Of a DNA stretch of 64,000 nucleotides, positions 20,935 to 60,820 are shown piece after piece. Every line of letters begins with the position of its first letter. Positions within the stretch are counted from its first letter, which is position 1. Source of the stretch: the human T2T-CHM13v2.0 reference genome, Homo sapiens. The notes below the pieces were generated by a model. It did no database searches and was not told the origin of the DNA. It saw only the letters and a list, made by a program, of their open reading frames with translations. The stretch lies in the NCBI RefSeq assembly GCF_009914755.1, contig NC_060936.1, one strand, 5' to 3'. The translations under genes were made by a program, and so were the position numbers.

Positions 20935-21309
20935 CTCTTTCTTTCTTTCCCTTCCTTTCTTTTTTTTTCTTTCTTTCTCTCTTCCTTTTTCTTTCTTTAT
21001 TTTCTTTCTTTCCCTTCCTTCCTTCCTTCCTTTTCTCTCTCCTTCCTTCCTCCTTCCTTCCCTTTCCCCTTTCCCCTTCCCTCCCTCCCTCCCTGCCTGC
21101 CTGCCTTCCTTCCTTCTCTCTCTCCTTCCTTCCTTCTCTTTCTCCTTCCTTCCTTCCTCCTTCCTTCCCTTTCCCCTTCCCTTCCTCCCTCCCTCCCTTC
21201 CTTCCTTCCTTCTCTTTCTCCTTCCTTCCTCCTTCCTTCCCTTTCCCCTTCCCCCTTCCCGCTTCCCCCTCCTCCCTCCCTCCCTCCCTCCCTCCCTCCC
21301 TCCCTCCCT

Positions 21310-30009: not shown

Positions 30010-30432
<423 letters not shown>

Positions 30433-30462
30433 ATAAAATAACCTTGTTTAAATCAAAGAGAT

Positions 30463-30859
<397 letters not shown>

Positions 30860-50657: not shown

Positions 50658-51183
50658 GGGAGCCTGATGCCGGAGGATCACTTGAGCCTAGGGGTTCAGG
50701 ACTGGCCTGGGCAACATAGCCCTGTTTCTACCAAAAAAAAAAAAAAAAAAAAAAAAATTAGCTGGGCACGGTGACTCATGCCTGTAGTCCCAGCTACTTG
50801 GGAGGCTAAGGTGGGAGGATTGCTTGAGCCCAGGGAGGTTGAGGCTGCAGTGAGCTGTGATCACGGCACTGCATTCCAGCCTGAGTGACAGAACGAGACT
50901 GTCTCAAAAAAAGAAAAAAAGGTCGGGGGCAGTGGCTCATACCTGTAATCCTAGCACTTTGGGAGGCCAAGGTGGATGGATTGCTTGAGCCCAGGAGTTG
51001 GAGACCAGCCTGGGCAACAGGGTGTCTCTACTAAAAACAAAACAAAAATCTGAGGTAGGAGGATCACCTGAGTCTGGGGGAGTCGTGGCTGCAGTGAGCC
51101 GTGATTCTGCCACTGCAGTCTAGCCTGGGCGACAAGGGTGAGACCCATCTCAAAAAAAAAAAAAAAAGAAAAAAGAAAAAAAA
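50658..51183 (+). mobile_element. Two tandem diverged AluJ-like elements (50658-50920; 50921-51183)
   Basis: GGAGGATTGCTTGAGCCCAGG and GAGGCTGCAGTGAGC diagnostics; expanded central A-linker; internal deletion in the second element. Confidence 0.9.
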
Positions 51184-54879: not shown

Positions 54880-55704
54880 TCAATAAATGTGAATTAATCC
54901 TTAACTAGGGCCTGTAATTTAGATTTGCTATCACCAGGTGCTGATAGGCGCCTTAGTTCAAGTAGCAAGAGGTCTTGACTTCCTTCCTCTCCATGCTTGG
55001 AAATAAGTGGAGGAAGCATTTGGTTATTATGGCAAAAATTATGGCAATTTGTCATCTTCAGTTGAAGGCCGTGGCTTAGCTGTGTGTCTGTCAGTTTGTT
55101 TTCTTCCCTATGGTCTCTGATGTCAATATGAGAGCCCTCGAGTGCCAAGGGCGTTATATCAGGGTCCTCTCACCGAAGCGGTGTTGGCCTTGTGGTCATC
55201 GCAGGTGGTTTGCTTCCAGGCGTTCCTTACGAGGCTTCCTTTTCCTTTCTTTACCTTCTTTCAGCCAGCTGCCCCATAAATAACAGAGAGCAAGTGTGGT
55301 TTACTGGATCACTAGCAGGTGTGAATGCTGTAGCTTTTCCGCTTTTCCCATTGGCTTGGGCCTCTGAAGTGCTCCAGGCTCTTTGCCTTCTCCAGCCTTC
55401 ATGTAGTCATCAGAGGCAGGTGGGTTGTAGGACAGAAAAGATACAGTTGTATTTGAGGGAGTACTCGTCAGTTGGGTTGGGGAGAGAGCCGCAGATCTCC
55501 TGGCGCCCTCACGGTCTCCTTGTTTTGGAGCACATTTGACTGCTGTGGTCATGGGGCCTGTTCTGGGCACCCCACCTCTCATGAACTGTGTCTGTAGCAG
55601 GATGGGGGAGAGGAGGACCGGCAGAGTGACAGAATGCTGCTGGAAATGGTGTGAAAATAGCTCAGGTAGGAGGAACCGCAGTCAGATGCGGCATGGCGGC
55701 GGGC

Positions 55705-57331
55705 GCATCGGGAAACCACTGGGCGCCCACCCCGGGGAGGGTTTCCACCTCAGCTGGGCGTCCTGAAGCCACTGGGTGCCCACCCCGGGGAGGGTTTCCA
55801 CCTCAGCTGGGCATCGTGAAGCCACTGGGCGCCCACCCCGGGGAGGGTTTCCACCTCAGCTGGGGCGTCCTGAAGCCACTGGGCGCCCACCCCGGGGAGG
55901 GTTTCCACCTCAGCTGGGCATCGTGAAGCCACTGGGCGCCCACCCCGGGGAGGGTTTCCACCTCAGCTGGGCGTCCTGAAGCCACTGGGCGCCCACCCTG
56001 GGGAGGGTTTCCACCTCAGCTGGGGTGTCCTGAAGCCACTGGGAGCCCACCCCGGGGAGGGTTTCCACCTCAGCTGGGCGTCCTGAAGCCACTGGGCGCC
56101 CACCCTGGAGAGGGTTTCCACCTCAGCTGGGCATCCTGAAGCCACTGGGTGCTCACCCTGGAGAGGGTTTCCACCTCAGCTGGGCATCCTGAAGCCACTG
56201 GGCGCCCACCCCGGGGAGGGTTTCCACCTCAGCTGGGCATCGTGAAGCCACTGGGCGCCCACCCCGGGGAGGGTTTCCACCTCAGCTGGGCGTCCTGAAG
56301 CCACTGGGTGCCCACCCCGGGGAGGGTTTCCACCTCAGCTGGGCATCGTGAAGCCACTGGGCGCCCACCCCGGGGAGGGTTTCCACCTCAGCTGGGCGTC
56401 CTGAAGCCACTGGGTGCCCACCCCGGGGAGGGTTTCCACCTCAGCTGGGCGTCCTGAAGCCACTGGGTGCCCACCCCGGGGAGGGTTTCCACCTCAGCTG
56501 GGCATCGTGAAGCCACTGGGCGCCCACCCCGGGGAGGGTTTCCACCTCAGCTGGGCGTCCTGAAGCCACTGGGTGCCCACCCCGGGGAGGGTTTCCACCT
56601 CAGCTGGGCATCGTGAAGCCACTGGGCGCCCACCCCGGGGAGGGTTTCCACCTCAGCTGGGCGTCCTGAAGCCACTGGGTGCTCACCCTGGAGAGGGTTT
56701 CCACCTCAGCTGGGCGTCCTGAAGCCACTGGGTGCTCACCCCGGGGAGGGTTTCCACCTCAGCTGGGCATCCTGAAGCCACTGGGCGCCCACCCTGGAGA
56801 GGGTTTCCACCTCAGCTGGGGCGTCCTGAAGCCACTGGGTGCCCACCCCGGGGAGGGTTTCCACCTCAGCTGGGGTGTCCTGAAGCCACTGGGTGCTCAC
56901 CCCGGGGAGGGTTTCCACCTCAGCTGGGGTGTCCTGAAGCCACTGGGTGCTCACCCCGGGGAGGGTTTCCACTTCAGCTGGGGTGTCCTGAAGCCACTGG
57001 GTGCCCACCCCGGGGAGGGTTTCCACCTCAGCTGGGGTGTCCTGAAGCCACTGGGTGCTCACCCTGGAGAGGGTTTCCACCTCAGCTGGGGTGTCCTGAA
57101 GCCGCTGGGCGTCCTTAAGCCACTGGGCGCCCACCCTGGAGAGAGTTTCCACCTCAGCTGGGCGTCCTGAAGCCACTGGGTGCTCACCCTGGAGAGGGTT
57201 TCCACCTCAGCTGGGGTGTGCTGAAACCACTGGGCGCCCACCCCGGGGAGGGTTTCCACCTCAGCTGGGCGTCCTGAAGCCACTGGGTGCTCACCCTGGA
57301 GAGGGTTTCCACCTCAGCTGGGGTGTCCTGA
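55705..57331. repeat. GC-rich minisatellite/VNTR, 30 units of 53-54 bp
   Basis: Consensus GAAGCCACTGGGCGCCCACCCCGGGGAGGGTTTCCACCTCAGCTGGGCGTCCT; 30 TTTCCAC cores counted; one truncated unit near 57095-57115. Confidence 0.98.
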
Positions 57332-57692: not shown

Positions 57693-57910
57693 CTGTGTTG
57701 CCCAGTGTGGGCGCCTCTAGCCACATGTGACTATCTGAATGTACCGTAATTGAAAATTAAGTAAAATGCAAAATGCATTTTGTCAGACGTGCTAGCTACA
57801 TTTCAGGTGCTCAGGAGCTGCGTATGACTGGTAGCAAGGGCTCCGTAATCCAGCCTAGGATTATAGAGCATTTCTATTACTGTAAATGTTGTATTGGACA
57901 GTGTTGCTAT
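57693..57910 (-). mobile_element. MER3-like hAT-Charlie relic
   Basis: CTAGCCACATGTG..ACATTTCAGGTGCTCA..TATTGGACAG matches my recalled MER3 consensus. Confidence 0.7.
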
Positions 57911-59129
57911 AGACTGGTCTATATATCTCAGTCAGGGTTCAGGCCTATAACAGAAACTTCTGTAGCCGTGTTTAGAGGAAAGATAGTACAGGAATTTAGG
58001 GGCTTATACAATAATTGGAAATGCTGCAAGAGCAGGCTTTAGGCCGGGTCTGTGGGAATGATTCCCAAAACAGTGCTGCAGAACAGGCCCCCCGAGGGAA
58101 CTGCGGTTCGGGTACAATTATGAGGCTGGGGGACCTGGAAGCCACTGTGCCAAGGGCTGGCTCTGGGATCACACCGCCTTATGCATGATCCAGGAATCAG
58201 GAAGCCACTGGTGTGGCCCTGCCAGCCAGATACCTGCAAAATAGATGCTTCCCCACCTGACGTAGTTTTGATTCAGTTCTTGATTGGCAAAAGTTGTGTC
58301 AGGAATTCTCGCTCCAAGGGAGGTTGGGAGCCATTGTGTTTAGCCCTCTGGCCCCTGCAGTCCAGCGGGGCACCGTAGGAGGAGGGTGGAAGAGCTGCTG
58401 AGACCGCAAGTTTACCAGCCTCCCACCCACCACATGGTGCTCAGCACACACCATCCTTCCAGAGAGGAGTGCCACTGGGGTTGAGATGACAGGGCCTCGG
58501 GTTATCGTCTGAGATCGAGAGACGGTGTCCTCTCTGTTCACGTCCTCCAGCTATCTGTGTACTGCAATAGATAGGGAAGATTAATGGCCCAGCTTTCTAG
58601 TCATTGGGCCTTTACTGGGTGGAGAAAGTCCGGTTTCTGTTCCAGGTTGTCTGCGATACTCTTAAAGGGAATGCAGGCCCCTTGTCACTACAGCAAGATG
58701 ACAGACAGCAAGAGCCAAGTGGGCTTCTGGGTGACATGTTGGCCTGAGAGAAGGCATTTCCTTTGCCCTGCAGAGATTGCTCAGTGGTCAGGACTTTAGG
58801 GAGAAATTTATTTGCAGTTCTTCCCTTTCTAGGTGTGAGCTGCGGCTGCTCACCCTCTCTAAATCGATGTGGGTGTCTGTGTCTACGAAGGTGGAGGAGT
58901 GACCTGCTTTTGTGCTCACAGAAGGCACCAAGGCCAAGCAGGGTGACTGCTGCTGAAGCAGGCTGGCAGCCCCAGACCTTTTCCTACTCACGGCTGATTG
59001 GGGGGTCCCTTTCCAATGCCAGGGGCGTTGGGCATGTTTATTCAACGGTGGCATGGAGGCAGGGAAGTGGGGAGAACACTGGCAGCTAGTGTTTGAGTTC
59101 TGCTTGTTTGGAGTGGGGGCTTGAAGAAG

Positions 59130-59570
59130 GGATCACCTGAGCCCAAACCTGAAACGTGAGAAGGGATTGCCTAGCAAAGGGCAGAGGGAAGAACATGAAG
59201 GACATTCTAAGTACATGCAAAGGCACTGCGGCAGGCAAGAGCTGAGCATGTCTGAGGCATGAAATGAGCCACTGTGTCAGGAGTGCATTGGACCGGGCCC
59301 AGAGGGGAGTGAGGTGAACTCAGAGAAGTGGGCCAGGGCCAGTCTGTGCAGGTGTTGTAAGCTGTTGACAAGGAGTTTGGATTTTGAAGGGATCTAACTA
59401 GGGGAATGACAGGGCCCAATTTACGAGTTCTGTTTTTAAAAGGTGACTTTGGCTGCTGCATGGAGATTGGCTTGGGGATGGCCAAGAGTGGACTGAGGAA
59501 AAGGGCAGGGTGGCTACTGCAGCACTTGTGGGCAAGAGATAGGTAGTGGCCTGGACTAGGATGGAGATCT
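59130..59570 (-). mobile_element. L2 LINE fragment
   Basis: GCAAAGGCAC..GAGCATGTCTGAGG..AAGGAGTTTGGATTTT..GGCCTGGACTAGG motifs. Confidence 0.7.
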
Positions 59571-60698: not shown

Positions 60699-60820
60699 CC
60701 CGAGAGGCCATACCTGTCTCACCCGAGAGGCCACACCTGTCTCACCCGAGAGGCCACACCTGTCTCACCCGAGAGGCCACACCTGTCTCACCCGAGAGGC
60801 CATACCTGTCTGTCTCACCT
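60699..60820. repeat. 23-bp minisatellite, 5 units (CCCGAGAGGCCAYACCTGTCTCA)
   Basis: Unit starts at 60699, 60722, 60745, 60768 and 60791. Confidence 0.97.

What the first reader, a model, noticed from the sequence alone, without database searches (positions are those of the whole stretch)
55705..57331. Intronic 53/54-bp GC-rich VNTR in CACNA1C: a candidate copy-number-tunable regulatory array
Seen: 30 tandem units over 1.63 kb. Every full unit keeps the E-box CAGCTG and TTTCCA (TGGAAA on the minus strand, the NFAT core). Canonical units also carry GCCCACCCC (KLF/SP CACCC box), CCCCGGGGA (EBF-like) and GCCACTGGGC (TFAP2-like GCCN4GGC). A YY1-core ATGGCGGC (55693-55700) abuts the 5' edge. Established: Cav1.2 calcium entry activates calcineurin-NFAT, and a different, 30-bp human-specific repeat in CACNA1C intron 3 has enhancer activity (Song, Lowe and Kingsley 2018). 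Inference: this is a second tandem array in the same gene that multiplies ~30 NFAT-core and bHLH sites. It could be a length- and sequence-polymorphic enhancer or silencer that short reads resolve poorly. I do not know of a functional description, but I cannot search, and short motifs arise easily by chance.
Basis: partly seen in the sequence, partly recalled or inferred. Interest (0 to 1): 0.8.

Follow-up and report, generated by a model that had tools for sequence, protein, structure and literature searches.

The report
Ordinary GC-rich minisatellite in CACNA1C intron
This is a real, single-locus array of thirty 53/54-base repeats inside a CACNA1C intron, but nothing in its sequence shows that it regulates the gene, and it looks like an ordinary, probably length-variable minisatellite.

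Summary

The array is unique in the T2T genome. A 24-base core of the unit, with up to 2 mismatches, occurs 30 times, all here. It lies about 148 kb upstream of the known 30-bp TRACT repeat. It is the largest tandem array in the 264 kb of the gene's 5' part that I could scan.

The regulatory reading has no support beyond the presence of motifs:
- One unit was copied 30 times, so the 30 sites amount to one observation.
- CpG observed/expected is 0.30, the same as background, so this is not a CpG island.
- Variation between units sits mainly at CpG positions, which suggests germline methylation. The invariant E-box/TTTCCA stretch has no CpG, so its constancy needs no selection.
- No AP-1 partner site lies beside the NFAT core, and the same bases also fit a kappa-B site at 9 of 10 positions.
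- It is not a lead expression-associated repeat in the Lu 2023 tables as held, nor on the Course 2021 human-specific list.

Polymorphism, chromatin state and ape orthologues could not be tested here.

The parts
55705..57331 (.). Whole 53/54-bp minisatellite array: 30 full units plus an 11-base partial unit. GC 0.68, CpG observed/expected 0.30.
55705..56235 (.). 5' block, units 1-10: mixed unit variants in 53- and 54-bp register. The first unit is degenerate at the array edge.
   Evidence: identity 0.81 at lag 53
56236..56659 (.). Central homogenised block, units 11-18: two unit types alternate (C B C B B C B C) as a 106-bp dimer. Within 56236-56712, identity is 0.976 at lag 106 and 0.943 at lag 53; exact self-matches reach 214 bp.
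56660..57331 (.). 3' diverged block, units 19-30, poorer in CpG. It includes a run of 54-bp units (56819-57088) and the truncated last unit.
57089..57160 (.). Unit 27: 72 bp, a normal unit with an 18-bp internal duplication of its first part.
   Evidence: (period-18 row at 57089-57129)
55693..55700 (+). A single occurrence at chance level; I do not count it as part of the array.

Best explanation
This is a single-locus, GC-rich intronic minisatellite (VNTR) about 2.1 Mb from the 12p end of the chromosome. It arose when one roughly 53-bp stretch was duplicated in tandem, and it keeps changing by replication slippage, unequal exchange and gene conversion. This shows in the homogenised 106-bp dimer core, the more diverged ends and the partial-unit duplication. 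It appears to be methylated in the germline like bulk DNA, so its CpGs decay to TpG/CpA and supply most of the differences between units. The E-box, TTTCCA/GGAAA, CACCC, CCCNNGGGA and GCCN4GGC matches are incidental content of the founding unit, multiplied by copying. The most likely effect on CACNA1C is none or small. The array structure, its uniqueness, its composition and the pattern of variation are shown. The mutational mechanism, germline methylation, copy-number polymorphism and lack of function are inferred.
For: Array anatomy. Genome-wide uniqueness: a 212-bp query found one candidate place, and the 24-mer core with up to 2 mismatches hit 30 of 30 times inside the array, with 0 elsewhere and 0 for the reversed control. 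It is therefore not a dispersed or transposon-derived family. GC is 0.68 but CpG observed/expected is 0.303, against 0.297 for the window and 0.29-0.30 for the 2-kb flanks. Of 54 aligned columns, 9 vary in two or more units. Five of the 8 columns that lie in a CpG vary, against 4 of 46 others (Fisher p = 0.0018); four of the five are C/T or G/A changes at CpG. CpGs per unit fall from 34 in the first 15 units to 24 in the last 15. The central block has identity 0.976 at lag 106 and exact repeats up to 214 bp, which points to recent multi-unit duplication. No canonical G-quadruplex motif was found (loops of 1-7: 0 on either strand). Folding is unremarkable (z = -1.0 as DNA, -0.9 as RNA). No Rfam match reaches its gathering score (best 23.1 bits against 78). 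The + strand has no ATG, and every frame carries 9-16 stops. No AP-1 site lies beside the GGAAA core (0 of 30 units), and the same bases fit a kappa-B consensus at 9 of 10 positions in 30 of 30 units, so the TF label is arbitrary. In the Lu 2023 lead eVNTR table, all 3 CACNA1C rows point to other repeats, and no chr12 row starts or ends at coordinate prefixes 21058-21075. A passage in the Garg preprint notes that VNTRs are enriched in subtelomeric regions.
Against: This happened in 0 of 5000 dinucleotide shuffles of the unit (at most 4 classes, in 14 shuffles). It also happened in 0 of 632 natural 65-bp windows with GC of at least 0.60 elsewhere in the window (at most 4 classes, in 3 windows). 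The classes were picked after looking at the unit, so this is not a fair test, but I could not run an unbiased motif-library scan. It is the largest tandem array in the 264 kb of CACNA1C scanned. Another intronic VNTR in the same gene has experimental effects (abstract). Base rates for some expression or methylation association are not small: 9,422 of 39,125 VNTRs in Lu 2023 (abstract), and methylation-associated VNTRs tend to be GC-rich (Garg preprint passage). The Lu tables list only lead associations, one file was cut when stored and one was not searchable, and I do not know whether this locus was among the loci tested.
Confidence: 0.75

Rival explanations
1. The array is a copy-number-tunable cis-regulatory element (enhancer, silencer or methylation-sensitive block). 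Its length or unit composition shifts CACNA1C expression, promoter choice or isoform use. bHLH factors at CAGCTG and NFAT/Rel-type factors at TGGAAA would be multiplied about 30-fold.
For: All 30 units keep CAGCTG and TTTCCA. The five named motif classes co-occur in 0 of 5000 shuffles and 0 of 632 natural GC-rich windows, though the list was chosen post hoc. There is a precedent in the same gene: the TRACT repeat alters calcium responses and the abundance of specific isoforms (abstract and section headings only). GC-rich VNTRs are over-represented among methylation-associated VNTRs. About a quarter of tested VNTRs show some expression association.
Against: The 30 sites are one ancestral site copied, so they are not independent. 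CpG observed/expected is at background level, and CpG-decay variants argue against a germline-unmethylated regulatory island. The motif stretch is invariant, but it is also the CpG-free part of the unit. There is no AP-1 partner for a composite NFAT element in any of the 30 units, and GGAAAA is absent. It is not a lead eVNTR or eMotif in the Lu 2023 tables as held. The hub's RefSeq table lists no functional element here. No paper describing it was found.
Confidence: 0.17
2. The array acts through nucleic-acid structure or transcription rather than TF binding. A 1.6-kb GC-rich repeat in the pre-mRNA or template could slow elongation, form R-loops or hairpins, or bind RNA-binding proteins, and so shift isoform ratios.
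For: GC is 0.68 in a block flanked by DNA of 0.35-0.56 GC. Each unit holds three short palindromes: GGGCGCCC, CCCCGGGG and CAGCTG (read directly). A section heading in the TRACT preprint reports shifts in isoform abundance for another CACNA1C repeat.
Against: Predicted folding of three units is no better than shuffles (z = -1.0 as DNA, -0.9 as RNA). No canonical G4 motif was found. GC skew is near zero across the array (-0.02 to 0.05), so it has no R-loop-type strand asymmetry. No Rfam family matches.
Confidence: 0.05

Closest known systems
TRACT, the 30-bp human-specific VNTR in CACNA1C intron 3 (Song et al. 2018, recalled and cited; Moya et al. 2025 PMC12452837, passages; Song et al. 2025 bioRxiv 10.1101/2025.09.15.676436, abstract)
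   Same: Both are intronic tandem arrays in the same gene on the same strand. Both have interspersed unit variants and kilobase size.
   Different: The place differs: TRACT lies about 148 kb downstream in T2T. The unit differs in length (30 against 53/54 bp) and sequence. TRACT is AT-richer. TRACT has experimental and disease-association evidence; this array has none. TRACT is on the Course 2021 human-specific list and this array is not.
Classical GC-rich, chromosome-end-proximal human minisatellites (Jeffreys-type hypervariable loci; recalled from general knowledge, not from a call)
   Same: Unit length of 10-100 bp, kilobase array, GC-rich, interspersed unit variants with a homogenised core and diverged ends. 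It lies 2.1 Mb from the end of a 133-Mb chromosome.
   Different: Hypervariability is not shown here. The 13-base PRDM9 hotspot motif is absent from the array: 9 matches in the window, none inside it.
Expression- or methylation-associated VNTRs (eVNTR/mVNTR) from genome-wide surveys (Lu et al. 2023 PMC10234305; Garg et al. preprint 10.1101/2020.12.16.423078)
   Same: Right size class and GC content for such surveys. The k-mers are locus-specific, so depth-based genotyping should work.
   Different: It was not found among the lead eVNTR or eMotif rows of Lu 2023 as held. The main text of the Garg preprint does not mention CACNA1C (0 occurrences), and its supplements are closed.
Other catalogued CACNA1C VNTRs: the 51-mer at hg38 chr12:2520070 and the 41-mer at chr12:2539201 (Course et al. 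2021, Table S1)
   Same: Intronic minisatellites of similar unit size and array length in the same gene.
   Different: Those two are scored as human-specific expansions. This array is not on that list of 467 loci, so it either is not human-specific or failed their filters.

Membership tests
Minisatellite / VNTR | Head-to-tail tandem units of about 10-100 bp | tested here: met
   30 units of 53, 54 or 72 bp
Minisatellite / VNTR | Interspersed unit variants and higher-order blocks produced by unequal exchange or conversion | tested here: met
   19 unit types in the order ABCDCEFGHICBCBBCBCJKLMNOPQRJSJ. The central 106-bp dimer block has identity 0.976 at lag 106.
Minisatellite / VNTR | Copy number varies between individuals | not testable with these tools
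   Only one human assembly is held. There is a weak hint: the hg38-minus-T2T offset is about 5.1 kb at the gene start (hub table plus Lu table) but about 4.0-4.3 kb at 2.19 Mb and at TRACT. T2T therefore holds about 1 kb more than hg38 somewhere in the interval that contains the array. The two gene starts come from different annotations, and other indels are possible.
Minisatellite / VNTR | Single locus, not a dispersed repeat family | tested here: met
   30 of 30 genome-wide hits of the 24-mer core (up to 2 mismatches) lie in the array. The 212-bp query gave one candidate place.
CpG island | GC at least 0.5, length at least 200 bp and CpG observed/expected at least 0.6 (criteria recalled) | tested here: not met
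   GC is 0.68 and length 1627 bp, but CpG observed/expected is 0.303, against 0.297 for the window.
Composite NFAT:AP-1 response element | GGAAA core with an adjacent AP-1 site (TGASTCA; consensus recalled) | tested here: not met
   WGGAAA occurs in 30 of 30 units on the minus strand. TGASTCA and TGANTCA occur 0 times on either strand. The bases 3' of GGAAA are CCCTCCCC.
Functional enhancer or silencer VNTR (TRACT-like) | Measured regulatory activity or a fine-mapped association with expression | tested here: inconclusive
   No row for this locus appears in the Lu 2023 lead eVNTR or eMotif tables as held. One file was cut, one was not searchable, and it is unknown whether the locus was in the tested set. 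No reporter or chromatin data are reachable.
Human-specific VNTR expansion | Expanded in humans and single-copy or short in other apes | tested here: inconclusive
   It is absent from the 467-locus Table S1 of Course 2021, which does list three other CACNA1C repeats. No ape genome is held here.
Structured RNA or miRNA locus | Match to a curated RNA family, or a fold better than shuffles | tested here: not met
   The best Rfam hit scores 23.1 bits against a gathering score of 78. The RNA fold z-score is -0.9.

The most novel reading that the evidence does not exclude
The array is a length- and composition-polymorphic, methylation-sensitive regulatory block. It presents about 30 bHLH (CAGCTG) and NFAT/Rel-type (TGGAAAC) sites 52 kb downstream of the exon that carries the NM_000719.7 start codon. 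It would tune CACNA1C output or promoter and isoform choice in an activity-dependent way, as a second functional VNTR in this gene beside TRACT.
Probability: 0.05. Interest if true: 0.7.

Novelty: new member of a known kind. Interest (0 to 1): 0.22.

Why it matters
CACNA1C is a leading psychiatric and cardiac risk gene, and one of its intronic repeats (TRACT) already has experimental effects. A second large repeat is therefore a fair candidate to genotype in long-read panels. As the evidence stands, this is one of tens of thousands of human minisatellites. Its transcription-factor motifs say nothing by themselves, because a tandem array multiplies whatever its founding unit happened to contain. 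The practical point is that the array is unique genome-wide, so its copy number can be read from existing short-read depth data as well as from long reads.

Tried and rejected
- **Dispersed or transposon-derived repeat:** rejected, since there are no copies elsewhere in the genome.
- **CpG island:** rejected, observed/expected is 0.30.
- **Coding or peptide repeat:** rejected. The + strand of the array has no ATG, and every frame carries 9-16 stops. The longest stop-free runs (up to 166 codons) follow from the run of 54-bp units, which keeps the unit's TGA in one frame.
- **Structured RNA or miRNA:** only sub-threshold Rfam hits, such as mir-7180 at 23 bits against 78. Fold z-scores are about -1.
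- **G-quadruplex array:** no canonical motif.
- **PRDM9 hotspot motif in the unit:** none of the window's 9 matches lies in the array.
- **Inverted relic copy downstream:** a 15-base inverted match at 57701-57715 pairs with many units. The surrounding sequence shows no wider similarity to the unit, so I treat it as chance.
- **YY1 core at the 5' edge:** chance level.
- **Literature:** nine searches and passages or supplements of 12 papers found no description of this array. Every CACNA1C VNTR passage I saw concerns the intron-3 repeat or the 51- and 41-mers. The published AJHG version of Garg et al. is not held, and bioRxiv supplements are closed, so their eVNTR and mVNTR tables could not be checked.
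- **Unbiased TF-motif enrichment:** not possible, since no motif library is available here.

Full report
**What is there.** The stretch 55705-57331 is a clean tandem array. TRF reports period 53 (26.2 copies, 94% matches), a 3' part of 4.3 copies, and an alternative period of 159. With the invariant CAGCTG as anchor I count 30 anchors. The 29 spacings are 53 bp (20), 54 bp (8) and 72 bp (1). The 72-bp unit is a normal unit with an 18-bp duplication of its first part, and the array ends in an 11-base partial unit. That flanking 8-mer is at chance level, with 0.72 expected and 52 of 100 shuffles holding at least one.

**Place and uniqueness.** The window's own assembly is held. A 212-bp piece of the array finds only the array. 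A 24-base core of the unit, with up to 2 mismatches, occurs 30 times in 3.1 Gb, all inside the array, against 0 for the reversed control. So this is a single-locus minisatellite, not a dispersed or transposon-derived family. The commonest unit of the known 30-bp intron-3 repeat (sequence from the passage) maps to chr12:2,251,685-2,257,264, about 148 kb downstream, so the two arrays are distinct. I ran TRF over the 264 kb I could assemble (T2T chr12:1,966,001-2,230,000). This is the largest tandem array there, at 1,620 bp. The next multi-copy arrays are a degenerate CA-rich array of about 570 bp and several under 250 bp. The rest of the gene could not be fetched. The array sits 2.1 Mb from the end of a 133-Mb chromosome. 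A passage in the Garg preprint says VNTRs are known to be enriched in such subtelomeric regions.

**Internal anatomy.** I aligned 29 units, leaving out the 72-bp one. This gives 54 columns, of which 13 vary and 9 vary in two or more units. There are 19 unit types in the order ABCDCEFGHICBCBBCBCJKLMNOPQRJSJ. Units 11-18 alternate two types as a 106-bp dimer. In 56236-56712, identity is 0.976 at lag 106 against 0.943 at lag 53, and exact self-matches reach 214 bp. The 3' third is more diverged and mostly in 54-bp register. A young homogenised core with older edges is the usual mark of unequal exchange, slippage and conversion. It predicts length polymorphism, though I could not test that.

**Composition and what it implies.** The array has GC 0.68, in flanks of 0.35-0.56. 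Its CpG observed/expected is 0.303, indistinguishable from the window (0.297) and from the 2-kb flanks. It therefore fails the CpG-island criterion. Five of the 8 columns that lie in a CpG vary recurrently, against 4 of 46 other columns (Fisher p = 0.0018). Four of the five are C/T or G/A changes at CpG; the fifth is a C/G transversion. CpGs per unit fall from 34 in the first 15 units to 24 in the last 15. The simplest reading is methyl-CpG deamination, which means the array is methylated in the germline like bulk DNA. The stretch that never varies (GGGTTTCCACCTCAGCTGGG, with two singleton changes) contains no CpG. Its constancy follows from lacking the hypermutable dinucleotide and from recent copying, and does not call for selection.

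**The motifs.** Thirty copies of a site in a tandem array are one ancestral site amplified, so the effective sample is one 53-bp unit. All five occurred together in 0 of 5000 dinucleotide shuffles of the unit (at most 4, in 14 shuffles). The same held for 0 of 632 natural GC-rich 65-bp windows elsewhere in the window (at most 4, in 3 windows). The classes were chosen after reading the unit, so any five labels fitted to any unit would look equally rare. An unbiased library scan is needed, and I could not run one. On specifics, no AP-1 site accompanies the GGAAA core in any unit. GGAAAA is absent. The same bases fit a kappa-B consensus at 9 of 10 positions in all 30 units, which shows how loose such labels are (consensus patterns recalled).

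**Other readings checked.**
- No Rfam family reaches its gathering score.
- Three units fold no better than shuffles, either as DNA or as RNA.
- No canonical G4 motif is present.
- GC skew is about zero across the array.
- The PRDM9 13-mer does not occur in the array.
- The + strand has no ATG, and every frame has stops.
- A 15-base inverted match at 57701-57715 has no wider similarity to the unit.

**Literature.** Nine searches found no description of this array. That includes a search for an 18-base string of the unit (0 papers) and one for CACNA1C with '53-bp' (0 papers). The passages I read in Lu 2021 and 2023, Moya 2025, the two Song preprints, a 2025 HiFi genotyping paper and a 2026 review all concern the intron-3 repeat. 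Course 2021 Table S1 lists three human-specific CACNA1C repeats, at hg38 2255791 (30-mer), 2520070 (51-mer) and 2539201 (41-mer), and not this one. In the Lu 2023 lead-eVNTR table, all 3 CACNA1C rows point to repeats at 2255789 (two rows) and 2191612. The num_var column shows 29 repeats tested for the gene. No chr12 row begins or ends with coordinate prefixes 21058-21075, which span my estimate of the hg38 position. There are caveats. That estimate is inferred from offsets. The tables hold lead associations only. One file was cut and one was not searchable. The Garg preprint's supplements are closed and the published version is not held.

**A weak lead on polymorphism.** The hg38-minus-T2T offset is about 5.1 kb at the gene start (hub table against the Lu table). 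It is about 4.0-4.3 kb at the 2.19-Mb repeat and at TRACT. T2T therefore carries roughly 1 kb more than GRCh38 somewhere in the 220 kb that contains this array. That would equal about 19 units, but the gene starts come from different annotations and other indels could account for it. A direct comparison of the two assemblies would settle the question.

**Verdict.** It is best explained as an ordinary GC-rich, germline-methylated intronic minisatellite whose motif content is incidental (confidence about 0.75). A regulatory role of some kind keeps about 0.17, mostly from base rates and the TRACT precedent. The specific NFAT feedback idea is a small part of that. It is a new member of a well-known kind, and interest is low to moderate.

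Noticed in passing
window 60699-60811: A small, very clean tandem repeat: 23-bp unit, 4.9 copies, 97% matches (CCCGAGAGGCCACACCTGTCTCA), about 3.4 kb downstream of the main array.
   Followed up: no
window 21025-21289: A CT-rich, low-complexity array that TRF scores with period 76, about 3 copies, 77-78% matches.
   Followed up: no
window 30113-30772: TRF gives period 348 and 1.9 copies. The consensus begins GGCCGGGCGTGGTGGC, which looks like two adjacent Alu-type elements (label recalled) rather than a true tandem array.
   Followed up: no
whole window: The 13-base PRDM9 hotspot motif CCNCCNTNNCCNC occurs 9 times against 2.89 expected, and 0 of 100 shuffles reach 9. None of the 9 lies in the array. 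Several look Alu-derived, e.g. CCACCTTGGCCTC at 50963 (recalled).
   Followed up: no
L034, T2T chr12:2,187,350-2,187,917 (outside the window): A degenerate CA-rich array. By position it appears to match the repeat at hg38 chr12:2,191,612-2,191,929 that Lu 2023 lists as the lead eVNTR for CACNA1C in cerebellum.
   Followed up: partly
window 59000-59499: A local G-over-C strand asymmetry: GC skew 0.374, against -0.09 to 0.15 in the other bins.
   Followed up: no
interval T2T chr12:1.966-2.187 Mb: Offsets to hg38 coordinates differ by about 1 kb between the gene start and 2.19 Mb. T2T therefore holds about 1 kb more sequence than GRCh38 in the interval that contains the array. This is possibly, though not demonstrably, a copy-number difference at the array (hub table).
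   Followed up: partly
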